From: Flectonema sp. DT1601
Taxonomy: Eukaryota
Reading direction: 5' to 3'
DNA length: 64,000 nt
NCBI GenBank assembly: GCA_964019425.1
Contig: OZ025802.1
Location: 372,001-436,000 of the forward strand
A program made the translations under genes and the position numbers. The notes under the pieces were generated by a model. The model did not search any database, was not told the DNA's origin, and saw only the letters and a program-made list of their open reading frames with translations. How positions within the stretch are numbered: position 1 is the first letter of the stretch; each line of letters starts with the position of its first letter. Shown here in pieces: positions 32,857 through 55,923 of this stretch.

Positions 32857-32978
32857 AAAGGAATATCATTGTTAATTTAAGATACTCTTAAGATATATAT
32901 TGTAACAAATATGGGTAAATGACTTACGACGCCTCAACCTTTGTCAAACGAACAGGAGTAGACGACCGAACACTTGGC

Positions 32979-34187: not shown

Positions 34188-34371
34188 ATTTAGCCCAACT
34201 GAAGAACTGAATAAAAACTTACTTACAATTACAACTGAGGAAGCTGCTCATGGAGCTCCAGGTCAACCCATTAGGTTGGCAATCCCACAAGAGGGAAAGA
34301 GAATTGCTAAGCTTACGGCAGGCCGGGAACACGATAATTTTTTTATGACTTACTCAAGAGAAGAGACTTTT

Positions 34372-34428
34372 AAAAAAAGCAAAATGAAAGAGAGACAAGA
34401 AAGATGTGACAAAATAAATAAATAAATA
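34372..34428 (+). mobile_element. Extremely 5'-truncated LINE 3' tail
   Basis: AAAAAAAGCAAAATGAAAGAGAGACAAGAAAGATGTGACAAAA is identical to the 3' end of the element at ~37434-37475; flanked by duplicated AGACTTTTAA. Confidence 0.7.
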
Positions 34429-34437
34429 AGACTTTTA

Positions 34438-36803: not shown

Positions 36804-36809
36804 CTTTTT

Positions 36810-37489: not shown

Positions 37490-37543
37490 CTTTAATAATA
37501 ATAATAATTTTTTATTTATTTATTTATTATAAATAAAAAATAA

Positions 37544-39768
37544 CTGGAAGTACGTTCGTTAGATATTGACTATTTTGATCTAGACAGCGTGATCAACACG
37601 ACGACGACAAGGCCCACTTTACTGAGTGGTGAAACGATCCTCGAAGTAGAGGGGAAACCCATCAGGACTCAACAAGAATTAGAAGATTTACTGATGTTGA
37701 ACATCCACGACGAGATGAATGTCAAAGCGAAAATTAAAATTGCCTTCCTACTGCCGATCACGGACTCAGTGAAATATCTGGGTGTTTACATTGATAACAG
37801 GCTCAGGTTTGATAAACAGTTGGAGAAAATACACGACGAACTGAAGAAAGGGATCTCCCTTCTGCAGTGCCTCCAGCCATATGAATTGGACTACAAGACC
37901 CTAAAGATGGTTAAAAACTTGTACGTGACAGCGAGGATTTCCTATGCACTGGACAGCTTTGGTTGGTTGCTCAACCAGCATAAAACGGACGCTATCGACT
38001 TCGAGATGAGAAAAATAGCGAGACTCGTAACAGGATGCAGCAGATGTACTCCTAGGGAGTTGCTCCTTTGGGAAGCCGACATCTTACCGTTTAAAAGACA
38101 AATCGAAAAGCAGACTAAAATTGCCTATTTCAGGTACAAAGCCATGACCTGGGTGCCGGACACCAACTCACTCGCATCGCCTCGAAGCTTCTGGGGTGGC
38201 CTCATTCCCCGTTCTGAAGGTCAACTAGAAAGTGTGGGGATCGTTCAACCTGACTCTATCAAACCTTGGATTGCTTCGGACAATGTTCAAATCAGCAACA
38301 GCTGCGGTTTTACAAAATCCCCTGATCCCGCAGTGGACAGGGAGAAATTCCTTACCTACAACGCGACACTTCCTCCGGTGGACATGGTGATCAACTGTGA
38401 CGGTTCATACTCTTCGAATGCGTCAGGCGCGGCTCTCATTGCTAAGTCACGAGACGGAAAGAAACGTGCTCATGCGACCAGATTAGTGCGTGCGGATTGC
38501 AGCTACAGAACAGAGCAACATGCCTTGAAAAATGCGGCAAACTACTTAAACTGGAAGGTACAGAAAGACGGGTTAACTAAGTCAGTCAGAATCTATACCG
38601 ACTCAAAATCATTGTTGGACGAGTTGAAGGGTGGCAGGTGTAAACAGAGAAACACCAGATCCCTCGGCATCCTCGAGAACCTACGGAACTGCGGTATGAA
38701 AGTACATCTTCAATTCATCCCTTCTCACATGGGGATAGAAGCACACGACGAAGTTGATGAACTTGCTAAGAAATCGGCTCACAACAGATACCTCCCTCAA
38801 ATCCCAATCCGAGGATCCTTCTTCTATCACAAATCCCGAGTGAGGAGGGGGATCACGAAGGACATTTGGAACAGAATTGGCTACACTTGCTATAAAAACA
38901 CCGTCAAAGGTGCCGCGATAAAATATCCTCCCGACATGAAAAGGAGCGATGAAATCAGAATTGCGAATTTCAGAACGGGGTGTCATCCACTGATGCAAAA
39001 CTGGCGGAAAGCCATCAAATGTCCATTCTGCCATAGCGCTCCATCCAACCAACTCCACCTACTCGTAGGCTGTCCATCACAGAAACTCGATGCAGCCAGA
39101 TATGAAATCCTTGGCTTTTCTACATTGACAGGCAAATGGGACCGATCAAGTGATCTAATCCTCATCAACGGCATTCCTGCCAGTCTTGGCTCAATCTTTG
39201 CCACCAGCTGGCTTCCTTCAGTAGCGATGTTGATCAGGTGGATGGAACAAGCATCCAACCTGAGACTTTGGAATTGTGTAGGTGACACGTAGTCGCCATT
39301 TAAGTGTTTTATCAATATTTAGTATTTTCATCATTATCAATCATCTCCTGGTTGGGTAACTGCACATCACCTTCGGTGTTGTCTCGGTGTCCCTTCCAAT
39401 ACTCCTTTCTCCTTCTTCTCCTATTCTCCTTATAAATTTCTCTTGAGGGCAGGCCTTCGGGCTGTTCAAGTGGTCTTTGACCACCGCTCTAGTTATATGC
39501 TCGACTCTTTGTTTTCCTTATCGATGGTAGGAATGGTAACCGAATTAGCTTCATGTGTCCAATTTCAAGGACGCGTGACCATTTATTTTCTTCCGTTGCC
39601 GCTCTTCTTACGTCCTCAGGCGGAGCCTACCTACGTTTCCCGTGTTTTCCAATTTGTCAGACTTAAATCAAAAGAAAGTATAAAAGAAAGACAAAACAAA
39701 GAAGTGAAAAGAACAAAAACAAAGAGTCTGGAAGCACAGACGAGTGTAACCAAAAAAACTTTTCTTTT
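37544..39768 (+). mobile_element. 5'-truncated divergent LINE of the same family (RT thumb, RNase H, CCHC; ORF remnant 37544-39292)
   Basis: VKYLG, NCDGS, YRTE, YTDS, FIPSH, EVDEL, RTGCH, CPFC..HLLVGC; 3'UTR ends GTGTAACC-oligo(A). Confidence 0.9.
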
Positions 39769-39770
39769 TT

Positions 39771-41940
39771 GCGGGGATGAATAGAGCATACTTGCTGGAG
39801 AGCGGAGGTGGTGCGATGCTGAAACAATGGAGTTTCAACCGCTTGGAGGGAGCGGGGGACCCAGCGATGCTCGTCCTCATGAGGGCAGTGCGTGATATCT
39901 TGTCGAGCTGTGGAGTCCTCGGCAAGCTGGGCGACGTCCAGGCGTACGGGCCTTTGGGGGGCTGGGAAGAGGGGGAATGGACACAGGTGAGGGGCATGGT
40001 CCAGAAGGCGAGTGGGGCGGGGATCTCCCTGAAGATCGCCGATCTACCGAGAGAGGTGAGGCATAGCGCGTACGAGTGGTGCTACGGAGTCCCCGAAGGA
40101 ATCCCAGAGAGGAAGCCAATGGTGTCTTTCCCCATGGTAGAGATGATCCCACGACCCGCGTTAGGCGACCGGCGAGGCCGGGTAGCGGAGGCGGTAAGGA
40201 CACGCCCACTGGCGATAACACAGGGGCCGACCAAGCGGAGATTGGGAGGACGCTCGCCATCAGACCTGAAGAAGACAAAGTCGAGTGACCCGCGGAGGGA
40301 CTCGATGGACGGCCCAGCTGGAGCTCCTTCATCGCACATTGCATCAGATGGGCCACCCCTAGCGGAGGCCAAGGAAACCAGGCAACAAGGGTCGGACAAT
40401 GCCCAACAGCAAAACAGACTGCAGGAGGACCCCAAGCCGGGTAGCGGACGTGTGACACCGGACTGCGAACATCGCACAGGGCCCGAACAGGCAGAGACAC
40501 CAACAGGGGCTGACTCGCAACCGGGACGGGACAAACCGCCGACGGAGTCGAACGCGGAGGAGACAGCGTCGGCCGGTGGGATCGAGCAACAAGAATCAGA
40601 GAGCACACAACAGGAAATCAAAGTGCACGAAGATTCGAAGCAAGAGACCGTGACCCGACTCGCTGACGGAGAGGCGATACCTGTGCTGCCTGACTATGAG
40701 CTCCTGCAGGCAGAATTTGAGAAGGGAACAGCGACGGCGGAGGCACGTGCTGAGAGGGGGCGGCAGGAGGAGGAGGTTAATGTAGTAAAGAAGCCAGCCG
40801 AAGGAACCGAGCCACAAGAGTCAGAAAGCGCCCAACAGGAAAACAATCTGCTGGAAGACTCGAAGCTTGCAACCAAGACTGGGAGCGATGATGCAACACC
40901 GGTGCTGCTGGAGGAAGGGAGTTCCCCTCGAACCGTGTTGGATGAACAGACGGCGAAGGATCACGCAGGGGACGGCATGCGGCTGCAGCGAGCTGTGTCG
41001 TCGGAGACATCAGACTCCGAAATGACATGCATGGACACAGATGTGACGAATTCGGGCGATGATGACACCTCAACATGCTCGGCACCGTCGGAAGATCCAC
41101 CTGAGCTGGGAAAGTGTCTGTGTGGAGACAGATGGCTCCCGAGGAACTTTAGGAGGAGACCCTTGGCTAGTAATGGGTGGTGCAACAGATGCCGCAGGAA
41201 GAGACTGAAGGGTACGTTGATGGTAAACTGTAGCAAATGCGACTTCGACCAATGCTGTGATCTGGCCGCGCTGAAAGCCAAACTCGCCAAGGAGGCGAAA
41301 AAGACGAAGACGAAGAGAAGGAGAGCCCATGACAAGGCGCGGAAGGGACCGGCTGGAGCTGACCGGGACCTTCTGTATCTGAGTAGTACAGACGCGTCGT
41401 CGTCGGGTTCGAAGACATTAGGGAACTTTGCGAGAGAGCTGGTGAGACGGCGGAGTAATAGAGGTAGGCTGCGGAAGCAAGTGTTTGGAAACAAGAGGAG
41501 AGTAGGAACAGGGAGCCTAACACGGTCATGCTCAGGTAACGAAGAAGACGACGACTAGGAAGAAGGAACATGTGAAAAAAAGTGAAAGGGAAAAAAAAAA
41601 AAAAAAAAAAAAAAAAAGGGTGAGCAAAAGAAAAGAACCAATGCGTGCCCAGGGAACACTGCGAACGAGCTTACTATACTACTCAGGGGTTAAAAAGAAA
41701 TGGGGAAAAAAAAAAAAAAAAAAAAAAAAAAGCAAAACAAAACGTGACCTTGTGAGCCATCATGAGTTATAATTTACTTATCTTTTCTTCGCCATGGCGA
41801 CGGGTAATCGTGGGACCTGTAAAACCAGCTTAAGACTGTTGATGTGGTTTATATTTTTAGCACGCATTCATACATCATAAGGATCGCTGGTTCCGAGGGT
41901 TTGCTCTCCCACTTACCTGCCTCTCTATCCCTCAAAAAAA
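39771..41940 (+). mobile_element. 3' fragment of a divergent relative of the CRE-like element (ORF remnant 39777-41558, 3'UTR, oligo(A))
   Basis: First ~105 aa align by eye with the second RNase H-like fold of the 2840-aa ORF (MLKQWSF~VLGTWSA, SSCGVL~KACGGL, GPLGGW~GSTTHW, IADLPREVRHSA~LVEMPERMRTHA). Same G/A-rich composition, acidic tail and a Cys-rich finger; ends in oligo(A) at the SL. Confidence 0.7.
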
Positions 41941-41979
41941 AACCAACGATTCTAAAGCTACAGTTTCTGTACTTTATTG
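41941..41979 (+). other. Spliced-leader (mini-exon) sequence, diplonemid type, retroposed copy 1
   Basis: AACCAACGATTCTAAAGCTACAGTTTCTGTACTTTATTG, 39 nt, with the euglenozoan CAGTTTCTGTACTTTATTG 3' part; followed by TTTTTTCCC rather than a GT SL intron. Confidence 0.93.
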
Positions 41980-42631
41980 TTTTTTCCCTCCCTCGCCCCA
42001 TCCCCGTCAGCGAGTAGGAAAGCGCAGCTAGGAATTTTTCCACGCAAGCGGATCCCACAACCCGACCACCCTTCCCCACGCTCACCCCATCCACCCTCCC
42101 CCACCCCAACAAAAGAAGAAATCGGCGGCAGCCACGTGACACACTCGTGTTCGTGTAGCGAAGCGTTTCGGCGACTTCGAAGACGACGACGACGACGACG
42201 TAGAAGAGACGGTGTATGTGACTGACCTTCTTCTTCCTTATTTATTTGTTTACTTTTGTTAATTACTTCCTCTTAATTTCATTCCTCTCTTAGATTGTTG
42301 TTTATTTGCTTATTTATTTGTTTGTTTATCTGTCTGTTTATCTGTCTGTATATTCTGTTACTATCTGTTATTTTGTTACATTTATTTATCTGTCTACATT
42401 AGAGTACATTTTTGTTATTGTTAAATTTAAACATCTTCTTCACAGTTTTTTCCCTCCCTCGCCCCATCCCCGTCAGCGAGTAGGAAAGCGCAGCTAGGAA
42501 TTTTTCCACGCAAGCGGATCCCACAACCCGACCACCCTTCCCCACGCTCACCCCATCCACCCTCCCCCACCCCAACAAAAGAAGAAATCGGCGGCAGCCA
42601 CGTGACACACTCGTGTTCGTGTAGCGAAGCG
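41980..42631 (+). repeat. 186-bp direct repeat X (41980-42165 and 42446-42631) separated by a T-rich spacer ending CTTCACAG
   Basis: The two copies read as identical; the first follows the SL, the second follows an AG acceptor. Confidence 0.92.
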
Positions 42632-42693
42632 CTTAGCGCTTTAAAGTCTTTTAAGTCTTTTAAGTCGCCCCCGTCGCCCCCCGACCCCCACAG

Positions 42694-42747
42694 GGTATTG
42701 AACCCAGGTGGACCAGAAGACAGACGGTGACAAAAACCACTGCGCCA
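42694..42747 (-). promoter_or_regulatory. Antisense Pol III A box (TGGCGCAGTGG, 42737-42747) and B box (GGTTCAATACC, 42694-42704)
   Basis: Both fit the tRNA-type consensus with tRNA-like spacing (32 nt between boxes); present in both element copies. Confidence 0.6.
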
Positions 42748-42881
42748 AAGTATATTGTTGAAAAAAAAAATTTTTTTTTTTTTATTGTTTATTATATATA
42801 TTAATTAGGTCATATTTATTTAGAAGAATTTGGTATTACTTGTCGTTGTTTATTTAGAAAATACTAAGGAAGAAAGAGGAG

Positions 42882-42914
<33 letters not shown>

Positions 42915-42997
42915 AATTAGATTTTGCATAGGCATACTTGCAGAGGAGGAGATAAACGCGGGTCCTTCAGTGAGCTCTAGTACATCGGCGGGGTAGG

Positions 42998-43031
<34 letters not shown>

Positions 43032-43278
43032 CATCTATCTTCGGTCTACGAACGCTTTGAGTCGGCCAGCAGTCACAAACGGACATTGAAGGCGCGGATA
43101 ATTGTTGTTGCTGTGGAAACCTTGCTCTGCTGAAGAGGGAGTTGAAATTTTCCCCACCTGCATTCTGATTCGAGTTGTCTTCGAGAGTACTTTGCTTTTG
43201 TCAAAAGTTAATTATTCCTCCAGCTCATACGTCCTTCTCATCTTTTCTGGAGACTGGACCGCTGGTGAACGCGCAAAC

Positions 43279-43552
43279 AGAACAAATATTTTCTTTTGTT
43301 CTTCGTTAAGACTACACTGAGACACGGTCTTCCGCAAAACATCGCACGAACAGAACATATCTTTTCTTGTTCTCGTTTAAACACCGCTTAAGACAGCGAA
43401 AAGAACAAATCCTTTTTTTTTGTTCTTGTTTAAACTCTGCTTTGATACACGGTCTTCCGCTAGTCAGCGCGCGAGAAGAACATATCTTTTCTTGTTCTCG
43501 TTTAAACTTTGCTTTTAAGACCTGCAAACAGAGCATATCCTTTTTTTGTTCT
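43279..43552 (+). repeat. Five imperfect hairpin repeats AGARCA-N(11-15)-TGTTCT in the element 5' region
   Basis: Units start near 43279, 43352, 43402, 43477 and 43530, most followed by GTT(T)AAAC; also present at ~55243-55517. Confidence 0.7.
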
Positions 43553-43870
43553 TGTTAAAACTCTCTTTTAAGACAAAACTTTACGAATCAGCCTGCGGGA
43601 GAGGAGAAGGAAGAACTCTCTCACTAGCTTTGTTTGGTGCCTGTGGTGGTGACTACCATTCTGCGTCGGAACTGTACGGGGGTGACCGCATAGACAGAAG
43701 AGTTCGGAAAGCGGAGGATACGCGAGCCGGAAAAAAAAAAAAAAAAAAAAAAAAAACCTACTCCACACACACGTACAGGGCTAACAAGGAGAAGAGCAGG
43801 TAAGTCGATTGTCTTTTTTCGGGTTCCATACACAAATCATCCACAGCGAAGGGAACGGAAAAGGAAGAGT

Positions 43871-43916
<46 letters not shown>

Positions 43917-43919
43917 AGA

Positions 43920-46900
43920 ATGGAGAAAACAATGTTACTGTGTGGGTACGTGCTGCTGTGGGCACTACTAAGTGGAACGAGGGCGCAACAGACGTCCGGA
44001 GTGGGTAAGCAGAGGTTAGCCCCAGTGCCAGGCGGATGGCACACCCCTCTATTCACAACGCTGGACAAAGGCCCACTGTTTTCATCGCGCATCAGCCGAC
44101 GCGTAACACGCCCGATCCCCCCGCACCCATTTGTAACCCCCAACAGCTCAAACAGCCCCAACAATACGGCAAGCGGACGCGCTTTCCAACATGGACGAGA
44201 GGGGGTGTGGGTCCCGTGGAGGGGAACGGAAACGGCCGGGAACCGGGTGAGGCGAGACCACCCAAAGCCACCTCCAGACAAGGGAGGAAGGGAGCTCCTG
44301 AAGAGGGCGTCCCCGAAAGTGGCGTCCAAGGCGGCAAGGCGGCTGGAAAGGAGGAGGAGGAAGCTGCTGAAGGAACGGCAGGAGAGGTGGGAGCGGTGGG
44401 TGGGAGAGTTGGAGAAGTTCCACGCCAGGCGAGAGAGATTCCGCGCGGAGACAGAGAGGCCAAGGAAGAACAAGGCGGAGACACCGAAGAAGCGACGGGC
44501 AGGGCCCGAAAGGGACTGGACAAAGCCAGGAGGGCACAAGGCGGAGCCCAGACCATGGTATGCGAGGCCGTCAGACCTGGCAGGAGGAGGGCAAAGCAAG
44601 GAGAGGACGAAGTGCCCGGTGGTGGGGTGCAGCGTCTGGGTGAGGGGTGACCTAGAGTACCACTTCAAACAACACCTGAAGGGAGTGGTACCGGGGGAGG
44701 TAACGGCCCAGATGGCTTCCGACAGACTCGGAAAGCAGATCTGCAAGGCCTGCGGGGAGCTGAGTACCGGATTGGTGCACCAGACAGTGAGGTGTCGGGA
44801 GATGTTGGACCTCAAGGGACGGCTGGGGGTAGCGACGGGACCCGCGCCGGAACTGGCAAGCCTGAAGTGCGAGGGAGCAAAAGTATTTCGGGTGATTGGG
44901 GATGGGAATTGCCTGTTCAGGAGTGTGTGCCAACTCCTAGAGACGCCAGAGGGGTGGAAGGGCAGACATGGAGAGCTCCGCAGGAGAACGGCAGGGTGCC
45001 TGACCAAGAACAGGGAAAGGTTCGAGGTCTTCTTCCAGGACGCGGACGCATTCGGAGTATATGCGAGGGCGTTAGAAGAGGATGGATGCTGGGGCGATGC
45101 GTTGGCCCTACAGGTCATGGCAGAGGACCTACAGTGCCGCTTCGTCGTCGTGGTGAGGACGGAAACGCTGGTGGTGGAAGGGCCATCGGACCCGAAGCAG
45201 ACGCTGGTCTTGACCCTGCAGAACGGGTGTCACTACGACCCAGTGGAGGCATCCGAGGACTGCGTCGCGCGGCTGCTACAGAGCGCCCGGAGGTTGGAGT
45301 TAGTGTCGCCAGGCCCGCTGTCGCAAGCAGCAGGAGGCGAGCCGGCAGTGCTGCAGACAGCCTCCCGACAGGCCCAGCTGCACGAGTGCCCCCAAGCGGA
45401 GTGCCCGAAACACAAGGGAGGCTTCGAGGAGTGGGCGGAGCTCCTAAGACACGTGGACGAGCACGCATTCAGTGGCAACCCGCTGACGCATGGACAGTTG
45501 GCGAGGCTAGGCCTCCGGGAATGTCCGGTGTGCTGTGGGATCATCGGGCAGGACCAGCCGATGCATCCGGGGTGCAGTGAGAAACTGCAGAAGGTCCAAC
45601 TGGGGGACGTGTACACGGCGTTCCGGAAGCGGGTGCTGGAGAGCCAGAGCTTCCCCTCATTGGAGGAAATAGCCAGCAGGAGGAGGCCGATAGCGAAGAA
45701 GCTGCCGGTGCCCCTGTTGCACCATTTGGGGCGAGCACTCAAGCTGGCGCTTGACCTAGTCGTGGAGCGGAACGATGAGTGGGCATGGAAGCTGCTCTTG
45801 ATGCTCCCGACTTGTACACTGCGGAGGATACGGAGGGGGGGTAGGAGGTTGTCGACCAGCAATCTGACAGGGGCTGTCGACGACCTGCAAGCATGGATTC
45901 GGGGGGATTTTGAGGGACTGTGGAAAGCGGCGGCCCCCCGCAAGGCGACGGGAAGGCCAGCAGTGAAAGAGGCGGGGCAAAAAGGAAGGAACGACAGGGC
46001 CACGTCGCTAGCGAGGGAGGGTTGCCTGTCACAGGCGATCTCGGCCCTAGACGCGCCGCCGCCAGCAGAACGAACCGAGAAGGTGCTGGAGCAGATGCGC
46101 ACCCTACACCCGAGGGCGAGCGGACCCCCATCGGCCACGGCAGGGCAGGAGGTGCAGATAGCAGAGGTGGAGCTGCTAGCATGCCTACGCTCCTTCCACA
46201 GGGGGTCGAGTGGAGGGCCTTCGGGCCTCGCGCCGCAACACCTGAAGGACGTGGTGGAGCGGGGTGAGGTGCCGGGGCTGGTAGCCTCGATCACGGAGGT
46301 GGTGAGGATTCTGGCGAACGGGAGGGCGCCGCGGGAAGTAGCGCCGCTGCTGGCGGGGGCGAACCTGACGGCGCTGGAGAAAGAAGGGAAGCCGGGGGAG
46401 CACCGGCCAGTCGCGGTGGGGGAAACATGGAGGCGGCTGGTGGCGAAGATCCTGTGCGGGGCATACAGGTCCCAGGCGAGGAGCTCGTTGCTAGAAGTGA
46501 GACAGCTGGGAGTAGCGGTGTCGGGGGGAGTGGAGGCGGCGGTGCACACCCGGCATGAGTTCCGCGCGGAGCACGCGCTCTCGTCACAGAAAGTGTTCGT
46601 GAAGATAGACTTCTCGAACGCCTTCAACTGCGTGAAGAGGGGGGCGTTCCTGGATTCGACGAGGGATACCCTGCTGGAGAGCTGGGTCAGCTGGTGTTAC
46701 GGAGCGCCGACGTGGTTGCTGTTTGGGGACGAGAGGCTGAGCTCGGAGGAGGGCGCTCAGCAGGGGGATCCGTTGGGTCCCTTGCTGTTCTCGTTGGCAA
46801 TCAAGCCGGCGCTGCAGAAGGTGTTGGAGGCGAAGCCGGAGTTGGCGTGCTTCTACCTGGACGATGGGCTGGTGGCGGGCACCCTGGAACAGGTAGACAA

Positions 46901-49900
46901 GGCCCTCCAAATCCTGCAGAAGGAGACGGCGGAGCTGGGGCTGACGCTGAGGCCGGACAAGTGCCAGACGCACGTGCTCGACTCAGCCCAGAACACCCTG
47001 CCCTTGGGGTGGGGGTTGGAAGGGATGAGACCCCCACTGTACAACGGGGACTTCCTGGGGGCACCGTTCGGGACGGAGGAACACTGCCAGGAGTTCGTCG
47101 ACAGGAAGGTGGCGCAGCTGGAGAAGAAAGCGGAGCTGCTAGCAGACCTGCAGGACCGGCAGGTGGCCATGGTGCTCCTAAGGCAATGCATGGGCTTCTG
47201 CAAGGTGACCCACCTGATGCGATGCTGCACGCATGGGAAAATGGACACCTCGATGCGGAAGGTGGACGAGCTGATGAGGTCCACGGCGAGCCGAGTGTTG
47301 GGCCTGACACTGGAGGGGCCAAAGTGGATGCAAGCACAACTGCCGACCCGGATGGGGGGATTGGGGCTGCGGTCATGTGCAGAGCACAGGGGAGCAGCAC
47401 TATTGGGATCCCTGGAATTAGTCCAAGGGGTGAGCAAGTCACTGTGGGAGGGGTTCAAGGGGGTGCTGATGCCAGCACTGAAGAAGGGGTTGAACCTCGC
47501 CCTCCCGGAGGAGCTAAGGATAGAAGAAGACGGGCCGGGGCCGAACCCCCAGAGGCTGTCCTCGGCGAAACTGGACCAGGTCAAGAGAGACTGCCTGCTG
47601 GCGGGGGCGAATGACCCGCGCGATAAAGGGAGGCTGCTCTCCCTGCGCATGGATAAGGCGAGCGCATGGCTGCAACAAGCAGATGAAGAGTGCGCGATGG
47701 ACCCAGAGACGTTCAGGATCGCATGTGGGATGCGATTGGGCGCAGCGCTGTTCGCGGAAGGGGCAGTATGCAGGATATGCTCAGGCCCACAGGATAGGCA
47801 GGGATACCATGCCTCAATCTGTATCAAAAACGGCCACGTGCACCAGCGACACGAGAGGGTGAAGGAGGAGTTCATCTCCATCTTTAAGCAGGCGGGATTG
47901 CCGCTGCTGAGAGAACCCAGCCACCTACTGGGACCCAACAAGCAGAGACCGGGGGACTGGTACTGCCAAGAGGGGCTGAGGGAGGGGAGAGGCAGAGCCT
48001 TCGACATCACAGTGGTAAACCCGGGGAAAATTAAATTGTATAAAACCCCGGGGCAAGCCGCGAGAGAAGCAGAGTCCCTGAAAGGGAACAAGTACGCGGA
48101 GCAGTGCACGAAACACGGGATTAATTTCTCGACAATTGCGCTGGAAGCGTACGGAGGGATGGGACGGGAAGCAGTGGGGACCCTGAAGAAGTTGGTGCAG
48201 ATCTGCGCAACGAACTCGACGGTGCCACACCGGGAGATCGCGGGGGAGATGGCGAGGAGGATCTCGACATCGGTGGTAGTGGCGACGGCGGAAGCACTGA
48301 GAGCGAGGGAGGCGTCGGTGGCGATGGACTCAGTGAACCCATTGCCAAGGACGAAACCGCCGCCCGAGATGACGGAGAAGCCGACATCACAAGAGAGAGA
48401 ACCAAGACCGAGAGCGGAAACGGAAGAGATCCAGCAGCCGGAAGTAATGCGACAGTCGGCAGGACCGCCCCCGACGATGAGAGGTTTGCCGAACATCGGG
48501 AACTCCTGCTACCTCGACGCGTCCGTACAGTGCCTGCTGAAGGGCACGGCACTGACACAAGTGCTGACGGGGAAGGAGGAAGTGGGGATGTCGGGCCTCC
48601 TGAGTGGAGTGGTCAAAGGGAGTGGGGAGTGCCTGGAGAAGCTGTCCGAGATGTTCGACCCGCTACAAGACAGGCGGCAGGGGGAGGTAGTAGGAACCCT
48701 GACGTCCATAGTAGACGCCCTGTTGGAGGAGAAGAAAGAGGTGTGCGAACCGTTGTTCTCGGCAGTACAGCTGAAACAGCTGGTCTGCACGGGTTGTGCG
48801 GACGCCTCCGGATCGACGGATGAGTTGACGCTGATCCCACTGAGTGGCCGTACACCACAAGTGAGGCTTCAGCCGACGAAGGAGAGAGTCGAGCGGTCCT
48901 GCGAGAAGCTGTGCGGCAGCAATGAGGCCACGCTGGAAGAGAGTTTCGCCTCGCTCCCAAGCTCCTTGATCTTCCAGAGAGACAAGCAGGACACGCAAGG
49001 GTCCTTGGGATGGGAAGAGCGCTTCCAGGTGCAGGTCGGGGAGAGGGTGATGACGTACCAGCAAACGGGAGCGATCGCGCACCTCGGGAGTGACAACGCG
49101 GGGCATTACGTGTCATACACGTGGGACGGAGTAGGCTGGCAGAAGCAAGACGACAAGGCAATAAGCCAAGTGTCGACAGAGGAGATCCACGGGACGAAAC
49201 CAGTAGTAGTGGTCTACTCGAGGGTGGAGGGATCGACCCAAGAGGACGTCGGGGTGCCGGTGAGATGGATTCCGGTGGCGAACAAGGACCGGATGGAGGT
49301 ACGCGAGGCACCGCCGTCGGAGGAGGACACCGCGGGGTACACGTCCAGGGAAGAGGCGGAGTGTGTCCTCCGGACGCGAGTAGTAGGGGGGCAGACGCAG
49401 CGCAAGCTGCTCTTACTGGTATCGAGCGTCTGGAACGCGGAGATGGAGAAGCTGGGGGCGGCAGCATGCCTGATACACATGGGAACGCTCGACAGGAGGT
49501 TCACGTGGTCGGGCTGCCTACCGACATGGGACGAAGCGACTGCGGAGTACGTGGCAGCGCTGCTAGGGCTCAACGCGATCAGGGAGAGATCGCAACTGCT
49601 GGGGGGTGAGACACAGATCGAGGTGGTCATACCGCAGCAGGGGTGGGGAGCCGAGCAGCAGGAGGCGCTGAAGTTGGTAGCGCTCCCGTCGGTGATAGAA
49701 CACCAGGTGACGGAAAGCTCACGAGGGGTGGAGAACCTGGCCCTCTGGGAAGCGGAATCGGCGGCATGGGACGAGCCGGTGGAACTCTCGGAGGACGGGC
49801 TCGACTACTTGGTGATCGAGCTGGAGATGAATCTGGGGCTGTCCCAATTGAGGGGAAAGGCGGCGGAACCGGATGAATCCCAGTCGCTCCCAGGAGGGTC

Positions 49901-52442
49901 GACGGCATCAGGCGAAGACAGACCACGAGCCGAAGCGCCAGCCCAGGTGGAAGCGCAGACGACGGAAGCACAAGGAGCGGAAGCAGTAGGGCTGAGAGAC
50001 GAGCCAGCACAGGAAGTGGGACAACCCGAGGAAAAAGAGCCCCCATCCCCCGACCCCCCGTCGAAGGAGGAGAAGCTGTATGCGGTGGCGGTGGGATGGA
50101 AACCGGGAGTGTATGCATCGTGGGAGGAGGCGAAGGCACAGACGGAAGGGTGCCCGAATGCGACACACCAGAGTTTCTCCTCCAGGAAGGAGGCGGACAG
50201 GTTCGTAGAGAGGTGGCAGCCGGAGACCAGGGAACCGACCCGGGCCACGGAGGGAGTCAGCCCACGTAAGTGGTACGCAGTGGCGAGGGGCAGGGCGGTA
50301 GGCCTGTTCCAATGCTGGAACGAGGCGAACTCGATGGTGTCAGGCTACGCGGCGGCGAGACACAAGAGTTTCGCAAGCAAGGGGGAGGCGGAGGGATACC
50401 TCCGAACCCACCTGCTGGGGGAGGTGGTTGGCGAAGTAGGGACGAGGTACACCTTGGTGTACGCATGCGAGGAAGACCCGGTAACGGGCCGTCTGGGGGC
50501 GGCGGCGAGCTGGTTGGACACACACCGTTTCGAGGTGTTGGGCACATGGTCAGCTGGCCTGCCAGCGGGAGACACACACTGGGGGCGATACTTCGCAGCC
50601 CTGGTGGGGCTGGTAGCGGCCAAGGCGTGTGGAGGCCTCGTCCCAGCGGAGGCATCCCTGCTGCTGCGAGGAAGCACGACACACTGGTCGACGGACCAGA
50701 GAGAGGTGCTGGAGGAGGCGGAGTTGATGGGGAGGCGTACGACGCTGGTGGAGATGCCAGAGAGGATGAGAACACACGCGACGGAGGAGGCGGAAAAAGC
50801 GGCGAAGGAGGGCTCGACCTCAGTGACGGAAGCCGTGATGAAGGTTTTCACAGAGGGGGCAAAGAACTGCCTGGGACACGGGACACAGACGGGTCCCTTC
50901 ACGGTGCGGTGGGAGGGAAGACAACTGCGTCTGGAACCCCAGTACACAGAAGAGGGGACGGGATCGTCAGGCGGCCGAGAGTCGGTGGAAGGAGAAGACG
51001 CGAGGGTAGAGGGCCGAGACGAGCAGAGCCCGGTCCCAACCCCGAAGGGGGCCGTGCAAAGGGTAGAGGCGGGAGTCCTGGAGTTGAGCTCGGAAGGGTC
51101 GGAGGGAGATGACGATAGATCATCCTCCCCAGCGACAGGGCAGGACGAAGGGAACGGTTCCATGTCGGGAGGCTCCTTGGGGAGTCCAGGGACGTCGGAC
51201 ATGGAAGCGGAAGAACAGACGGACGAAAGGGACCAGTCAGTAGACCCGTCGGCAGCAGAGACCTCAGGCGAAAACCATCACCTGGCCGAGGACCTGCAAG
51301 CCGAGAAGGGGGACGAGCTGGACGAGACGTCCCACCACTCAGGAGAGCCACCGTCGTCAGACGGCATGGACGGAGTGGAGGGGTTGGAGGACCTGGAAGA
51401 CTCACAGTCGGAGATGGAAGTCGACGGAGATAATGTGACGGAAGGGTCAGTAGTCCAGTACGTCGAGGAGACGTCAGAGGACGTGGTCCAGGTGGCAGAG
51501 TCGGACACAGAGGAGGAGGGATCGTCAGACTCCCAAATGACCATGACGGTCGATGAACAGGAATGGGAAGAGGGAGCGGCGCCCGAGGGGAACACAGGTC
51601 AGATGGCCTGGATGCTGGGACTACACCCAGAAGGGGGGAACGCGGAAACACGACGGGAGGGCCAATCGGAGCCCCTTTCAAAGCTGGTGAACTCAGGCGA
51701 AACAAAACCAATGGCCGAGAGATCCAGTTTGGGGGCGAAGATGGGACCACGCGCAGTGGGTAGTGACGGGAGCGGGGAAGATGCAGAGAGATCGCCGGGC
51801 ACGGTGTCGACACCGAGCACGAGAGGGAGGACGAAGTACAGAAAGGGAATGGAGGAGGAGAGGGAGGAGTGTGTGTCGCCGAAGACAAATACGGGAAGGG
51901 GACGCACGAGAGGCCGGAAGGCAAAGACGGGGGCAAAGGGGGCCGGAAAGGAGGACCCAAGTCCGCAGGTGTTGCAGGCGGAAATGGGAGAGTCCACCCC
52001 GAGCTCAGGTGAACGGCAGGCGAGGAGGAGGTACAGGAAGGGAGAAGAGAGGGAGAGGATAGAGGTTCTCTCCCCAGACCCGAGCAGGAAAGCGAAGAGG
52101 AAGAGACGCAAGCAGAAGGAACCGGAGCCAGTGGAGGGCACCACGAGGGAACAGGCGCCGCGGAGTTACAACAGGAAACCCACACTGCGTCGGGTAGGTA
52201 AGGGAGACTCACCCGACACAATGGGGTACGCACACGGGCCCCCGGGCTCCCTGACCTCGTTCACGGACGCGGGCGTACGCCCGGAGCCGGCGGAACGAGA
52301 CGGACAAGGTGTGGCAGGAGCAGAGTTGGTCACAAGGTCGTCGTCACAGAGTGAGAAAAGCACCCAAGGAGAGATGAGGGAGAGAGAAGGGGATCCAACG
52401 CGAAGGGTCCTGGACTTCTCGTCGAAAGGGGGAAGGCGCTAG
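43920..52442 (+). CDS. Retrotransposon polyprotein (2840 aa): signal-like N-terminus, zinc fingers, OTU, zinc fingers, RT, CCHC-RLE, USP (C19), RNase H-like, 2x RNase H1 hybrid-binding domain, RNase H-like, acidic/basic tail
   Basis: OTU GDGNCLFRS/WGD/HY (~44885-45240); RT DFSNAFN, QQGDPLGP, YLDD, QLPTRMGGLGL (~46000-47400); CRIC..H...C, RHE, RPGD, FDITV, KGNKY (~47770-48150); USP GLPNIGNSCYL, AHLG..GHY, QDD (~48480-49220); YAVAVGWKPGVYASW and WYAVARGRAVGLFQCW (~50075-50410). First ATG at 43920. Confidence 0.92.
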   Translation: MEKTMLLCGYVLLWALLSGTRAQQTSGVGKQRLAPVPGGWHTPLFTTLDKGPLFSSRISRRVTRPIPPHPFVTPNSSNSPNNTASGRAFQHGREGVWVPWRGTETAGNRVRRDHPKPPPDKGGRELLKRASPKVASKAARRLERRRRKLLKERQERWERWVGELEKFHARRERFRAETERPRKNKAETPKKRRAGPERDWTKPGGHKAEPRPWYARPSDLAGGGQSKERTKCPVVGCSVWVRGDLEYHFKQHLKGVVPGEVTAQMASDRLGKQICKACGELSTGLVHQTVRCREMLDLKGRLGVATGPAPELASLKCEGAKVFRVIGDGNCLFRSVCQLLETPEGWKGRHGELRRRTAGCLTKNRERFEVFFQDADAFGVYARALEEDGCWGDALALQVMAEDLQCRFVVVVRTETLVVEGPSDPKQTLVLTLQNGCHYDPVEASEDCVARLLQSARRLELVSPGPLSQAAGGEPAVLQTASRQAQLHECPQAECPKHKGGFEEWAELLRHVDEHAFSGNPLTHGQLARLGLRECPVCCGIIGQDQPMHPGCSEKLQKVQLGDVYTAFRKRVLESQSFPSLEEIASRRRPIAKKLPVPLLHHLGRALKLALDLVVERNDEWAWKLLLMLPTCTLRRIRRGGRRLSTSNLTGAVDDLQAWIRGDFEGLWKAAAPRKATGRPAVKEAGQKGRNDRATSLAREGCLSQAISALDAPPPAERTEKVLEQMRTLHPRASGPPSATAGQEVQIAEVELLACLRSFHRGSSGGPSGLAPQHLKDVVERGEVPGLVASITEVVRILANGRAPREVAPLLAGANLTALEKEGKPGEHRPVAVGETWRRLVAKILCGAYRSQARSSLLEVRQLGVAVSGGVEAAVHTRHEFRAEHALSSQKVFVKIDFSNAFNCVKRGAFLDSTRDTLLESWVSWCYGAPTWLLFGDERLSSEEGAQQGDPLGPLLFSLAIKPALQKVLEAKPELACFYLDDGLVAGTLEQVDKALQILQKETAELGLTLRPDKCQTHVLDSAQNTLPLGWGLEGMRPPLYNGDFLGAPFGTEEHCQEFVDRKVAQLEKKAELLADLQDRQVAMVLLRQCMGFCKVTHLMRCCTHGKMDTSMRKVDELMRSTASRVLGLTLEGPKWMQAQLPTRMGGLGLRSCAEHRGAALLGSLELVQGVSKSLWEGFKGVLMPALKKGLNLALPEELRIEEDGPGPNPQRLSSAKLDQVKRDCLLAGANDPRDKGRLLSLRMDKASAWLQQADEECAMDPETFRIACGMRLGAALFAEGAVCRICSGPQDRQGYHASICIKNGHVHQRHERVKEEFISIFKQAGLPLLREPSHLLGPNKQRPGDWYCQEGLREGRGRAFDITVVNPGKIKLYKTPGQAAREAESLKGNKYAEQCTKHGINFSTIALEAYGGMGREAVGTLKKLVQICATNSTVPHREIAGEMARRISTSVVVATAEALRAREASVAMDSVNPLPRTKPPPEMTEKPTSQEREPRPRAETEEIQQPEVMRQSAGPPPTMRGLPNIGNSCYLDASVQCLLKGTALTQVLTGKEEVGMSGLLSGVVKGSGECLEKLSEMFDPLQDRRQGEVVGTLTSIVDALLEEKKEVCEPLFSAVQLKQLVCTGCADASGSTDELTLIPLSGRTPQVRLQPTKERVERSCEKLCGSNEATLEESFASLPSSLIFQRDKQDTQGSLGWEERFQVQVGERVMTYQQTGAIAHLGSDNAGHYVSYTWDGVGWQKQDDKAISQVSTEEIHGTKPVVVVYSRVEGSTQEDVGVPVRWIPVANKDRMEVREAPPSEEDTAGYTSREEAECVLRTRVVGGQTQRKLLLLVSSVWNAEMEKLGAAACLIHMGTLDRRFTWSGCLPTWDEATAEYVAALLGLNAIRERSQLLGGETQIEVVIPQQGWGAEQQEALKLVALPSVIEHQVTESSRGVENLALWEAESAAWDEPVELSEDGLDYLVIELEMNLGLSQLRGKAAEPDESQSLPGGSTASGEDRPRAEAPAQVEAQTTEAQGAEAVGLRDEPAQEVGQPEEKEPPSPDPPSKEEKLYAVAVGWKPGVYASWEEAKAQTEGCPNATHQSFSSRKEADRFVERWQPETREPTRATEGVSPRKWYAVARGRAVGLFQCWNEANSMVSGYAAARHKSFASKGEAEGYLRTHLLGEVVGEVGTRYTLVYACEEDPVTGRLGAAASWLDTHRFEVLGTWSAGLPAGDTHWGRYFAALVGLVAAKACGGLVPAEASLLLRGSTTHWSTDQREVLEEAELMGRRTTLVEMPERMRTHATEEAEKAAKEGSTSVTEAVMKVFTEGAKNCLGHGTQTGPFTVRWEGRQLRLEPQYTEEGTGSSGGRESVEGEDARVEGRDEQSPVPTPKGAVQRVEAGVLELSSEGSEGDDDRSSSPATGQDEGNGSMSGGSLGSPGTSDMEAEEQTDERDQSVDPSAAETSGENHHLAEDLQAEKGDELDETSHHSGEPPSSDGMDGVEGLEDLEDSQSEMEVDGDNVTEGSVVQYVEETSEDVVQVAESDTEEEGSSDSQMTMTVDEQEWEEGAAPEGNTGQMAWMLGLHPEGGNAETRREGQSEPLSKLVNSGETKPMAERSSLGAKMGPRAVGSDGSGEDAERSPGTVSTPSTRGRTKYRKGMEEEREECVSPKTNTGRGRTRGRKAKTGAKGAGKEDPSPQVLQAEMGESTPSSGERQARRRYRKGEERERIEVLSPDPSRKAKRKRRKQKEPEPVEGTTREQAPRSYNRKPTLRRVGKGDSPDTMGYAHGPPGSLTSFTDAGVRPEPAERDGQGVAGAELVTRSSSQSEKSTQGEMREREGDPTRRVLDFSSKGGRR

Positions 52443-53183
52443 GGACTCCACGAAGGAGGTCTCAAGAGTCGAGGAAAAGACAGAGCCAAGACCCCAGAGC
52501 CAACCCAAAACACATGGTAGAGGACGAGGGAGAACAAGAGCGGGAGCGAGGTTAGAAACGTGACCAAAGCCCCCGCGAAGCAGGAGACACAACCTGCAAC
52601 CAGACCCCCCCAAAAGAAAAAAAACCCCGGTCAACGAGGCAAACTCGGACCAAAACATGCTTTTCACCCCCCCCAGGAAACACCGACCAGTGGAGCCAAA
52701 GGCCGCACACATATTATAAAAATCAAAGGCCGCCCCCCAACCCAAGAAAAGGATGAAAAACTTTCAAGCGAAAAAACTTGACGTCCGTACGCCCCAGAGA
52801 TCAAAGGACGGACGACTCACACCCCCTTCTTTCGCCCCATTTTATTTACTGGTACAGCGACAAATGTAAAGCTGGGTAGACGACGAATTATCTTTTGTGC
52901 ACAGAGACAAGGGATCCATGAGAACAAAGGATCAAGAGAAGAAGGGCACATTCCCCATCCCAAAACCAGAAACATGAGAACTCATTAAATTGAAGGGTCA
53001 TGTCTTTTCAAGTCGAAAAATGCTTAAATGCTAAAGAAGACTGTCGTCCCCAGCTCGCGGGTTTTCCCTGTCGCTGTATGTCGAGACAACGATCAGAGTC
53101 AGAAGAAGGATTGTACTAATTAACAGTATAATGAAAAAGGACAAAGAGAGTAGTTTCCATTTTATCTTCCCGAATATAAAAAA

Positions 53184-53222
53184 AACCAACGATTCTAAAG
53201 CTACAGTTTCTGTACTTTATTG
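53184..53222 (+). other. Spliced-leader sequence, retroposed copy 2
   Basis: Identical 39-mer, preceded by the oligo(A) tail of copy A and followed by repeat X. Confidence 0.93.
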
Positions 53223-53870
53223 TTTTTTCCCTCCCTCGCCCCATCCCCGTCAGCGAGTAGGAAAGCGCAGCTAGGAATTTTTCCACGCAAGCGGATCCCA
53301 CAACCCGACCACCCTTCCCCACGCTCACCCCATCCACCCTCCCCCACCCCAACAAAAGAAGAAAACGGCGGCAGCCACGTGACACACTCGTGTTCGTGTA
53401 GCGAAGCGTTTCGGCGACTTCGAAGACGACGACGACGACGACGTAGAAGAGACGGTGTATGTGACTGACCTTCTTCTTCCTTATTTATTTGTTTACTTTT
53501 GTTAATTACTTCCTCTTAATTTCATTCCTCTCTTAGATTGTTGTTTATTTGCTTATTTATTTGTTTGTTTATTTGTCTGTTTATCTGTCTGTATATTCTG
53601 TTACTATCTGTTATTTTGTTACATTTATCTGTCTACATTAGAGTACATTTTTGTTATTGTTAAATTAAAACATCTTCTTCACAGTTTTTTCCCTCCCTCG
53701 CCCCATCCCCGTCAGCGAGTAGGAAAGCGCAGCTAGGAATTTTTCCACGCAAGCGGATCCCACAACCCGACCACCCTTCCCCACGCTCACCCCATCCACC
53801 CTCCCCCACCCCAACAAAAGAAGAAAACGGCGGCAGCCACGTGACACACTCGTGTTCGTGTAGCGAAGCG
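53223..53870 (+). repeat. 186-bp direct repeat X in copy B (53223-53408 and 53685-53870)
   Basis: Same arrangement as in copy A; second unit preceded by CTTCACAG. Confidence 0.92.
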
Positions 53871-53932
53871 CTTAGCGCTTTAAAGTCTTTTAAGTCGCAG
53901 AAGTCGCCCCCGTCGCCCCCCGACCCCCACAG

Positions 53933-53986
53933 GGTATTGAACCCAGGTGGACCAGAAGACAGACGGTGACAAAAACCACTGCACCA
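53933..53986 (-). promoter_or_regulatory. Antisense Pol III A box (TGGTGCAGTGG) and B box (GGTTCAATACC) in copy B
   Basis: Homologous to 42694-42747; the one substitution still fits the A-box consensus. Confidence 0.6.
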
Positions 53987-54009
53987 AAGTATATTGTTGA
54001 AAAAAAAAA

Positions 54010-54740
54010 TTTTTTTTTTTTTTTTTGGTTACACTCGTCTGTGCTTCCAGACTCTTTGTTTTTGTTCTTTTCACTTCTTTGTTTTGTCTTTCTTTTATAC
54101 TTTCTTTTGGTTTAAGTCTGACAAATTGGAAAACACGGGAAACATAGGTAGGCTCCGCCTGAGGACGTAAGAAGAGCGGCAACGGGAAAAAATAAATGGT
54201 CACGCGTCCTTGAAATTGGACACACGAAGCTAATTCGGTTACCATTCCTACCATCGATAAGGAAAAACAAAGAATCGAGCATATAACTAGAGCGGTGGTC
54301 AAAGACCACTTGAACAGCCCGAAGGCCTGCCCTCAAGAGAAATTTATAAGGAGAATAGGAGAAAAAGGAGACAGGAGTGTTGGAAGAGACACTGCGACAA
54401 CACCGAAGGTGATGTGCAGTTACCCAACCAGGAGATGATTGATAATGATGAAAATACTAAATATTGATAAAACACTTAAATGGCGACTACGTGTCACCTA
54501 CACAATTCCAAAGTCTCAGGTTGGATGCTTGTTCCATCCACCTGATCAACATCGCTACTGAAGGAAGCCAGCTGGTGGCAAAGATTGAGCCAAGACTGGC
54601 AGGAATGCCGTTGATGAGGATTAGATCACTTGATCGGTCCCATTTGCCTGTCAATGTAGAAAAGCCAAGGATTTCATATCTGGCTGCATCGAGTTTCTGT
54701 GATGGACAGCCTACGAGTAGGTGGAGTTGGTTGGATGGAG
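54010..54740 (-). mobile_element. Nested, inverted, 5'-truncated copy of the LINE at 37544-39768
   Basis: Reverse complement of ~39039-39768 with a poly(A) tail (T-run 54010-54026); absent from copy A; flanked by duplicated AAAAAATTTTT. Confidence 0.92.
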
Positions 54741-55694
54741 AAAAAATTTTTATTGTTTATTATATATATTAATTGGTCATATTTATTTAGAAGAATTTGG
54801 TATTACTTGTCGTTGTTTATTTAGAAAATACTAAGGAAGAAAGAGGAAGAAAAAAAAAAAAAAAAAAAAAAAAAAAAGAAATTAGATTTTGCATAGGCAT
54901 ACTTGCAGAGGAGGAGATAAACGCGGGTCCTTCAGTAAGCTCTAGTACATCGGCGGGGTAGGAAAAAAAAAAAAAAAAAAAAAAAAAAGCTCATCTATCT
55001 TCGGTCTACGAACGCTTTGAGTCGGCCAGCAGTCACAAACGGACATTGAAGGCGCGGATAATTGTTGTTGCTGTGGAAACCTTGCTCTGCTGAAGAAGGA
55101 GTTGAAATTTTCCCCACCTGCATTCTGATTCGAGTTGTCTTCGAGAGTACTTTGCTTTGGTCAAAAAAAAGTTACTTATTCATCCAGCACATACGTCCTT
55201 CTCAGCTTTTCTGGAGACTGGACCGCTGGTGAACGCGCAAACAGAACAAATTTTTTCTTTTGTTCTTCATTAAAACTACACTGAGACACGGTCTTCCGCA
55301 ATACATCGCACGAACAGAACATATCCTTTCTTGTTCTCGTTTAAACACCGCTTTAAGACAGCGAAAAGAGCATATCCTTTTTTTTGTTCTTGTTTAAACT
55401 CTGCTTTGATACACGGTCTTCCGCTAGTCAGCGCGCGAGAAGAACATATCTTTTCTTGTTCTCGTTTAAACTTTGCTTTTAAGACCTGCAAACAGAGCAT
55501 ATCTTTTTTTTGTTCCTGTTAAAACTCTTTTTTAAGACAAAGCGTTACGAATCAGCCTGCGGGAGAGGAGAAGGAAGAACTCTCTCACTAGCTTTGTTTG
55601 GTGCCCGTGGTGGTGACTACCATTCTGCGTCGGAACTGTACGGGGGTGACCGCATAGACAGAAGAGTTCGGAAAGCGGAGGATACGCGAGCCAG

Positions 55695-55754
<60 letters not shown>

Positions 55755-55875
55755 ACTCCACACACACGTACAGGGCTAACAAGGAGAAGAGCAGGTAAGT
55801 CGATTGTCTTTTTTCGGGTTCCATACACAAATCATCCACAGCGAAGAGAACGGAAAAGGAAGAGTAGCAAAAAAA

Positions 55876-55907
<32 letters not shown>

Positions 55908-55923
55908 AAAAAAAAAAGAGAGA

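What the first reader, a model, noticed from the sequence alone, without database searches (positions are those of the whole stretch)
41930..53225. Both SL copies are immediately preceded by the oligo(A) tail of a CRE-like element: a possible self-supplied target site
Seen: ...CCCTC-oligo(A)|AACCAACGAT at 41940/41941 (tail of a divergent relative) and ...AATAT-oligo(A)|AACCAACGAT at 53183/53184 (tail of copy A). Two different 3' ends land at the same position, the SL 5' end. Established: kinetoplastid CRE/SLACS/CZAR elements insert site-specifically into SL RNA genes. Inference: this family recognises the SL, and because each copy carries an SL at its head, each insertion creates a new landing pad. 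That would build head-to-tail arrays away from the true SL RNA array.
Basis: partly seen in the sequence, partly recalled or inferred. Interest (0 to 1): 0.87.

Follow-up and report, generated by a model that had tools for sequence, protein, structure and literature searches.

The report
Retrotransposons queue at their spliced-leader heads
Two distantly related jumping-gene families in this protist genome sit tail-to-head, each tail ending at the first base of a copy of the cell's 39-base mRNA leader, likely because they insert at that leader and each full-length copy likely brings a fresh leader with it, leaving a new landing site.

Summary
An identical 39-nt spliced-leader (SL) exon starts at 41941 and 53184, after A7 and A6 tails. 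The 39-mer is this organism's SL: two public runs hold it in an SL gene context, followed by GT. The upstream piece is the truncated 3' end of a second OTU-RT-RLE-USP family, 29% identical to copy A. Copies A and B are not a decayed duplicate (dN/dS 0.21). In the window the SL has no intron and joins the base that follows a CAG in an internal repeat, like a trans-spliced product. Elsewhere, three more intact SL heads follow oligo(A): one on an A-family tail with a different poly(A) site, one fitting the U tail, one unknown. A diverged U-like tail also meets SL +1. One head is cut inside the SL. The two families lie on at least 22 contigs. SL-directed insertion with an RNA-borne SL head is the best reading (0.55), but it is inferred: no cleavage data, no unbiased 3'-flank census, and B's far end is outside the window. 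SL targeting by CRE elements and self-renewing tandem targets (R1) are known. New variant of a known kind.

The parts
41941..41979 (+). SL exon copy heading element A (39 nt, no intron)
   Evidence: same exon followed by GT in runs X1, X2
53184..53222 (+). SL exon copy heading element B, identical to the first
41934..41940 (+). A7 tail of family-U fragment, abutting SL +1
53178..53183 (+). A6 tail of element A, abutting SL +1
39762..41940 (+). 5'-truncated 3' end of family U (last ~595 codons, stop at 41558, then 3' UTR); no SL at its 5' junction
   Evidence: 99.5% to P0108 residues 3070-3662
41941..53183 (+). Element A, full length, 11.2 kb, SL head to oligo(A)
41980..42165 (+). Repeat X1 of A (186 nt), joined directly to the SL
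42166..42445 (+). Spacer Y: T-rich tract ending in TCTTCTTCACAG, a predicted trans-splice acceptor (AG at 42444-42445)
   Evidence: sequence; pyrimidine fraction 0.63, rank 31 of 121 AGs in the 5' UTR, so not an outstanding tract by itself
42446..42631 (+). Repeat X2 of A, identical to X1 and starting right after the AG
43920..52442 (+). ORF of A, 2840 aa: zinc-finger-like motifs (232, 490), OTU (327-414), RT (821-1019, YLDD 979), CCHC and RLE (1284-1390), USP/UCH (1521-1766), two RNase H1 N-terminal domains (from 2052), acidic tail
53184..64000 (+). Element B, 97.8% identical to A; X1 53223-53408, X2 53685-53870, ORF from 55924, open at the window end
54020..54740 (-). 3' 720 nt of an ingi-like element inserted antisense in B's 5' UTR at an A10/T13 site; the site is empty in A
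34371..39758 (+). Head-to-tail 3' fragments of ingi-like (RT, RNase H) elements left of U, each tail followed by a T-rich stretch
   Evidence: 'ingi-like' is my label from domain order, not a tested assignment
1..33866 (-). Host gene cluster, long uninterrupted ORFs all on the minus strand; the retroelement pile begins where it ends

Best explanation
Families A and U are CRE-like retrotransposons whose tails abut the first base of an SL exon copy, likely because their endonuclease nicks at SL +1 (plus or minus 2) and primes reverse transcription there, and whose SL head was likely carried in on the element RNA, so that each full-length copy would offer a new target. Shown: the junctions, the SL identity, the two families, the SL joined to the base that follows an internal CAG, dispersal over many contigs. 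Inferred: the SL head began as a trans-splicing event at that AG and was fixed in the element as SL-X1-Y-AG-X2; the unspliced RNA beginning at SL +1 is the template and the internal AG yields the translated mRNA; the array grew leftwards (B, then A at B's head, then U at A's head); U arrived 5'-truncated without an SL and ended the chain, after which ingi-like pieces piled up at T-rich sites. How the template gets its 5' end at SL +1 is open: master copies behind a real SL promoter, as reported for SLACS, or a template switch from X1 onto the spliced SL-X2 mRNA. First insertions at dispersed sites would need off-target insertion or transduction.
For: Two unrelated tails at the same SL base. 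Third, diverged U-like tail (13 substitutions and 3 gaps in 121 nt) plus oligo(A) plus SL nt 1-27 in run X2. Antisense junction peptides from other contigs: 3 of 4 carry an intact SL and all 3 have oligo(A) before it; P0129 is an A-family tail with about A8 directly after CCCGAA, where the window has TAT-A6; P0130 fits the U tail with A6. P0131 keeps only the last 11-17 nt of the SL on a non-A flank, as a cDNA stopping short would. SL|X1 equals CAG|X2 to the base. U, truncated, has no SL at its 5' junction, and no SL-gene flank is in the window. RLE motif close to the SLACS/CRE consensus. dN/dS 0.21, p 3e-17. A family 35 cluster members, U family 10, on at least 22 contigs. CRE elements insert in SL genes (PMC12278014); SLACS RNA starts at SL +1 (PMC3447711).
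Against: P0128 has SL plus oligo(A) on a flank matching neither the window nor U's ORF: a third family's tail or a plain host A tract, the latter favouring A-directed joining. The extra junctions are read from peptides, not DNA, and were found through the SL head, so they do not measure 3' flanks. Only one 3' flank outside the window came from laying on a tail. No element was seen inside a real SL gene (0 of 55 metagenome SL matches follow oligo(A), mostly other species). A nick at +1 leaves no conserved upstream sequence, unlike the mid-exon site recalled for trypanosomatid elements. The ingi-like neighbours are also head-to-tail without any SL. P0131 could be a later insertion into the SL. 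All known CRE elements are said to make target duplications (PMC3636483).
Confidence: 0.55

Rival explanations
1. SL-directed insertion, but the head is target-derived: bottom-strand nick at +1 and top-strand nick at +39 duplicate the whole exon. Arrays start in real SL genes, as R1 tandems do in rDNA; this locus is the edge of an SL array or a moved piece of one.
For: A is flanked by two perfect SL copies. CRE elements make target duplications (PMC3636483). R1 tandems form by insertion into the duplication at the 5' end of an earlier copy (PMC2718515). B's far end is unseen.
Against: The element's first base would match the base after an internal CAG by accident. Truncated U has no SL in front. 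P0131 lacks the 5' part of the SL, not the 3' part. No SL-gene flank in the window; copies on at least 22 contigs.
Confidence: 0.17
2. End-to-end template jumping: the RT finishes one RNA at its SL cap and jumps to the poly(A) end of another, so tail|SL +1 reflects the RNA 5' end and no SL recognition.
For: Explains the exact +1 position with no nuclease specificity; template jumping is described for R2 (PMC2718515); the cDNA ends in TT, which pairs with A. P0128's unknown flank could be a host mRNA end.
Against: Acceptor RNAs should mostly be host mRNAs, yet at least 3 and probably 4 of 5 intact heads follow CRE-family tails. Tails are about 6-8 A, not full poly(A). U-A-B would need over 25 kb of continuous cDNA across two families and two subfamilies that differ at 120 of 2691 codons.
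Confidence: 0.13
3. The downstream element is the newer one: SL-headed copies insert into or are joined behind oligo(A) tails of older elements, so the junction is a 5' junction at the RNA's natural start.
For: All intact heads follow oligo(A), including one on an unknown flank (P0128). The ingi-like pieces are also head-to-tail.
Against: The window has 57 A6+ tracts in 64 kb, so generic A-tract targeting would almost never pick element ends; 7 internal tracts in A are unused. The A and U tails share no sequence, so tail-specific recognition is not parsimonious.
Confidence: 0.1
4. Assembly artefact or segmental duplication.
For: A and B are tandem and 97.8% identical; the whole genome was not available.
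Against: dN/dS 0.21; B has its own insertion; the U junction is outside the repeat; like junctions occur on other contigs and in an independent run.
Confidence: 0.03

Closest known systems
CRE clade of trypanosomatids (SLACS, CZAR, CRE1, CRE2)
   Same: Single ORF with zinc fingers, RT and C-terminal RLE, poly(A) end, SL association (PMC12278014 passages); RLE motif near the SLACS/CRE consensus (PMC12857005 passages); SLACS RNA starts at SL +1 (PMC3447711 passages).
   Different: 3' junction at SL +1, leaving the exon whole, against a mid-exon site near nt 11 (recalled; primary papers not held). Here the SL copy has no promoter or intron and copies lie on many contigs. Proteins are 2840 and 3667 aa with OTU, USP and RNase H1 N-terminal domains.
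R1 tandem arrays in Drosophila; tandem Utopia in U2 genes
   Same: New copies insert at the target regenerated at the 5' end of an earlier copy (PMC2718515 passages); Utopia-1_NVit occasionally tandem in U2 genes (PMC4640811 passages).
   Different: There the target is a duplication of the host gene and many, perhaps all, R1 arrays stay in rDNA. Here the target is likely imported through RNA processing and shared by two families 29% identical.
NeSL of nematodes
   Same: RLE element targeting SL exons and bearing a protease domain (PMC4640811 passages).
   Different: Other clade; described with target deletions (PMC3636483); its protease is Ulp1-type (recalled), not OTU or USP.
SL-tagged retrocopies (dinoflagellate retrogenes; SL fragments near retrotransposons in Perkinsela; SL on Hydra TE transcripts)
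   Same: Trans-spliced leaders reach TE RNAs or get written into DNA (PMC12014239 search listing; PMC5601477 passages and supplement table 6; PMC12220107 passages).
   Different: In what I read none is described as using the retroposed leader as an insertion target.

Membership tests
CRE clade non-LTR retrotransposons | Single ORF with RT followed by CCHC and restriction-like endonuclease | tested here: met
   RVT_1 hit; CxxC..H..C..RHE/RHN, RPGD/KPAD, FD in A and P0108; spacings differ by 1-2 residues or more from the consensus in PMC12857005
CRE clade non-LTR retrotransposons | N-terminal zinc-finger-like motifs | tested here: met
   C2H2-like patterns at 232 and 490 in A, 345 in P0108; pattern match only
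CRE clade non-LTR retrotransposons | RT groups with SLACS/CRE1/CZAR in a tree | not tested
   No named reference proteins came back; 102 homologues at up to 38% over long stretches, mostly unnamed, one called '132 kDa protein'; best solved structure is R2 at E 1.6e-5
CRE clade non-LTR retrotransposons | Oligo/poly(A) 3' end | tested here: met
   A7 and A6 in the window, about A8 in P0129
Trypanosomatid SL-specific elements (SLACS/CZAR/CRE1) | Inserted inside SL RNA genes at the shared mid-exon position | tested here: not met
   Junctions are at exon +1, with no SL promoter or intron in the window; the mid-exon position is recalled
Trypanosomatid SL-specific elements (SLACS/CZAR/CRE1) | Target-site duplication | tested here: inconclusive
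   A lies between two full SL copies, which reads as a 39-bp duplication or as an RNA-borne head; U and P0131 favour the latter
Site-specific RLE element | Endonuclease cleaves the target sequence | not testable with these tools
   Needs a biochemical assay
Euglenozoan SL exon | 39-nt exon followed by a GT donor in the SL RNA gene | tested here: met
   Runs X1, X2; 34 of 55 metagenome matches are followed by GT, many in tRNA/snRNA/5S clusters (20 of 53 loci scanned)

The most novel reading that the evidence does not exclude
A pair of giant, deubiquitinase-bearing CRE retrotransposons have turned the host's trans-splicing into a target factory: the leader written onto their RNA becomes, after insertion, the site both families cut, with all specificity downstream of the nick, so SL-specific elements escape the SL array and seed shared chains across the genome, and the X repeat acts as an LTR-like strand-transfer region that renews the SL head each cycle.
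Probability: 0.3. Interest if true: 0.78.

Novelty: new variant of a known kind. Interest (0 to 1): 0.58.

Why it matters
It would show a site-specific retrotransposon carrying its own target through an RNA-processing step, which links strict SL targeting to genome-wide dispersal and may explain SL fragments beside retrotransposons in other euglenozoans. An RLE that needs only sequence downstream of the nick would be a useful contrast to R2 and is directly testable on a 39-bp substrate. The OTU plus USP cargo, with catalytic motifs intact, suggests these elements act on host ubiquitin signalling.

Tried and rejected
No whole genome is held, so no flank census. Direct U-versus-A comparison found nothing significant; relatedness came from homologues. 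Rfam over 39000-56500 at E up to 1 gave 0 matches, so no ribozyme or SL family was detected; SL-X1 folds no better than shuffles (z -1.42). No RNA holder listed among runs. The oligo(A)+SL pattern found 0 in metagenome contigs; no RT relative in viral contigs or beside SL matches in loci L001-L062. Five exact look-ups of window junction ORFs were not in the collection. P0133 is the internal X2 repeat, not a junction, and P0132 is an unrelated bacterial protein in that cluster; both were dropped. The high depth near the SL in run X2 was not the SL: it is absent over 41745-42165 and coincides with loose ends at the GAC repeat. The X-Y contigs in X1 and X2 are circular paths through the repeat and say nothing on heads. 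The oligo(A)-length scan was faulty and printed nothing; the P0130 reading is by hand from the codons printed there. Atlas search gave only generic RT clusters. A host peroxidase search did not place the organism. Earlier-findings look-ups returned nothing. Paper searches listed no report of an SL-headed element using its head as target, and search 15 for the SL start gave unrelated papers among the 20 of 45 listed; the original CRE1 and SLACS papers were not held and the Perkinsela Supplementary Note S1.3 was not among the supplement passages seen, so prior description is not excluded.
Full report
Observation. The window holds two identical 39-mers at 41941-41979 and 53184-53222 and no other copy within 14 mismatches. 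The first follows CCCTC-A7, the second GAATAT-A6. Only 0.7-1.2% of positions follow six A, and none of the 7 internal A6+ tracts of copy A carries the 39-mer. The 39-mer is the organism's spliced leader: both public runs that hold this DNA contain it with an upstream flank ending TTTTTAAGGTT and a GTACAG donor. The same exon, allowing two free positions, is followed by GT in 34 of 55 metagenome matches, often in tRNA, snRNA or 5S clusters. The long one-strand run of uninterrupted host ORFs at 1-33866 fits a euglenozoan; I did not place it more finely.

Anatomy. Element A spans 41941-53183 and encodes 2840 aa: zinc-finger-like motifs, OTU, RT, CCHC-RLE, USP, two RNase H1 N-terminal domains and an acidic tail. 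B starts at 53184 and runs off the window. A and B differ at 120 of 2691 aligned codons, 73 silent and 47 replacing, dN/dS 0.21, p 3e-17, so they are copies of lineages under selection and not a decayed duplicate. B carries an antisense 720-nt insert absent from A. The piece upstream of A (U, 39762-41940) has no detectable likeness to A, but it is 99.5% identical to the C-terminus of P0108, 3667 aa, with the same domain order and 29% identity to A across OTU-RT-RLE. Left of U lie head-to-tail 3' fragments of RT-RNase H elements.

The head. In the window the SL is not followed by its intron, and neither SL-gene flank is present. It is followed by a 186-nt repeat X1; a second copy X2 lies 466 nt on and starts right after TCTTCTTCACAG. 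SL|X1 and CAG|X2 agree to the base, which is what trans-splicing at that AG would give. That AG is not an outstanding acceptor by pyrimidine content (rank 31 of 121), so the argument rests on the exact register. X1 and X2 share one element-specific variant (T in both A copies, A in both B copies), so they are homogenised or regenerated within an element; one site is thin evidence.

Other copies. A's protein cluster has 35 members (15 listed, on 15 contigs of different length) and U's has 10 on 10 contigs; 3 lengths are shared, giving at least 22 contigs of 40-832 kb. They are labelled ENA only, so one assembly is likely but not shown. Spurious antisense gene calls cross X1 and the SL, and a search with one of them returned 4 proteins. 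Three carry the intact SL, each followed in antisense by phenylalanines, that is oligo(A) upstream. P0129 continues into the A-family 3' UTR (24 of 25 residues match the window) with about A8 directly after CCCGAA, where the window has TAT-A6: an independent 3' end at the same SL base. P0130 stops just as the U tail would with A6 (by hand); other flanks could give the same. P0128 continues into sequence found neither in the window nor in U's ORF. P0131 keeps only the last 11-17 nt of the SL and has no A run. In run X2, one 151-nt contig at depth 2.8 shows a U-like 3' end with 13 substitutions and 3 gaps in 121 nt, then oligo(A), then SL nt 1-27; no loose end showed a U tail on another flank. 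In sum 5 of 5 intact heads follow oligo(A), and all CRE-type tails seen meet SL +1, but the peptide cases are conditional on the SL and are not DNA.

Mechanism. In target-primed reverse transcription the 3' junction marks the first nick and is the rigid one (PMC2718515 passages). Read that way, A's target was B's SL head and U's target was A's SL head, with the nick at +1 give or take the SL's own AA. The RNA-borne origin of the head is favoured over a 39-bp target duplication by the acceptor register, by truncated U lacking an SL and by P0131 lacking the 5' part. The template must start at SL +1 and skip splicing at the internal AG; SLACS transcription starts at +1 of the interrupted SL gene (PMC3447711 passages), which would supply this if master copies sit behind SL promoters, but none was seen. 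A template switch from X1 to the spliced SL-X2 mRNA is an alternative. All of this paragraph is inference. I give it 0.55, target duplication 0.17, template jumping 0.13, insertion behind A tails 0.10, artefact 0.03.

Against. No cleavage data; no unbiased 3'-flank census; B's far end unseen, so the array may end in an SL gene; P0128 may be a host A tract; the SL-less neighbours are head-to-tail too; and a self-supplied pad does not explain the first insertion at each dispersed site. None of 55 metagenome SL matches follows oligo(A), so the arrangement was not seen in relatives, though those contigs are mostly short.

Comparison. CRE elements insert at one relative position in SL RNA genes (PMC12278014 passages) and make target duplications (PMC3636483 passages). 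The mid-exon position near nt 11 is recalled; the primary papers were not held. R1 builds tandems on the duplication at an earlier copy's 5' end, so self-renewing targets are known. Perkinsela has SL fragments near retrotransposons and about 30% of Hydra TE reads bear an SL. Searches listed nothing on an SL head used as target or on OTU in such elements, within an open-access library. Structure and motifs meet the CRE definition; the tree was not tested; the trypanosomatid insertion site is not met. PMC8061765, PMC10161547, PMC11771631, PMC2696322 and PMC1635306 were seen as passages and add only background.

Verdict. Observation confirmed, interpretation partly supported and now the leading one. 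New variant of a known kind; interest 0.58. A side result, giant viruses encoding this same SL behind their early promoter, may deserve more attention than the finding itself and is listed under noticed in passing.

Noticed in passing
L001-L009 (IMG/VR contigs IMGVR_UViG_3300046534_001516 and GVMAG-M-3300027833-19); about 19 of L010-L062, e.g. L015, L016, L021, L030, L052: Giant-virus-like DNA (A32 ATPase, YqaJ, topoisomerase II) carries this same 39-nt SL exon without intron, upstream of ATG codons. In 28 of 30 distinct non-GT copies an AAAA(A/T)TGA-type motif ends 18 or 19 nt before SL +1, against 0 of 29 GT copies. A looser scan gave 11 of 126 loci with near-complete SL. These viruses likely hard-code the host leader at early transcription starts, which would also point to their host. 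The Bodo saltans virus passages do not report this (PMC5871332); searches listed no such report.
   Followed up: partly
window 43920-52442; P0108: Both families carry deubiquitinase domains with catalytic motifs present: OTU and USP in A; OTU, a USP and a second USP-like Cys box in P0108, plus two RNase H1 N-terminal hybrid-binding domains. A's ORF begins with a signal-peptide-like hydrophobic stretch.
   Followed up: partly
window 41980-42631 and 53223-53870: X1 and X2 share an element-specific variant at position 143 (T in A, A in B), suggesting conversion or regeneration of the head from the internal copy.
   Followed up: partly
window 34371-39758 and 54020-54740: Ingi-like 3' fragments stacked head-to-tail at the end of the host gene cluster; each tail is followed by a T-rich stretch, and one family also inserted antisense into B at an A10/T13 site.
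   Followed up: partly
window 42882-43913 and 54850-55917: Long genomic A tracts (22-57 nt) and about 120-nt imperfect repeats in the 5' UTRs of A and B, with lengths differing between the copies.
   Followed up: no
window 19505-20887: Host gene resembling the N-terminal half of bacterial catalase-peroxidase KatG (E 1e-89), possibly horizontally acquired.
   Followed up: no
L011, L017, L023, L025, L034, L048, L059: SL RNA genes with this exon sit in dense clusters of tRNA, U snRNA, SRP or 5S genes; in L019 and L041 they lie next to LSU rRNA.
   Followed up: no
L017 near 1232: A second, altered SL copy followed by an inverted SL piece close to an SL gene.
   Followed up: no
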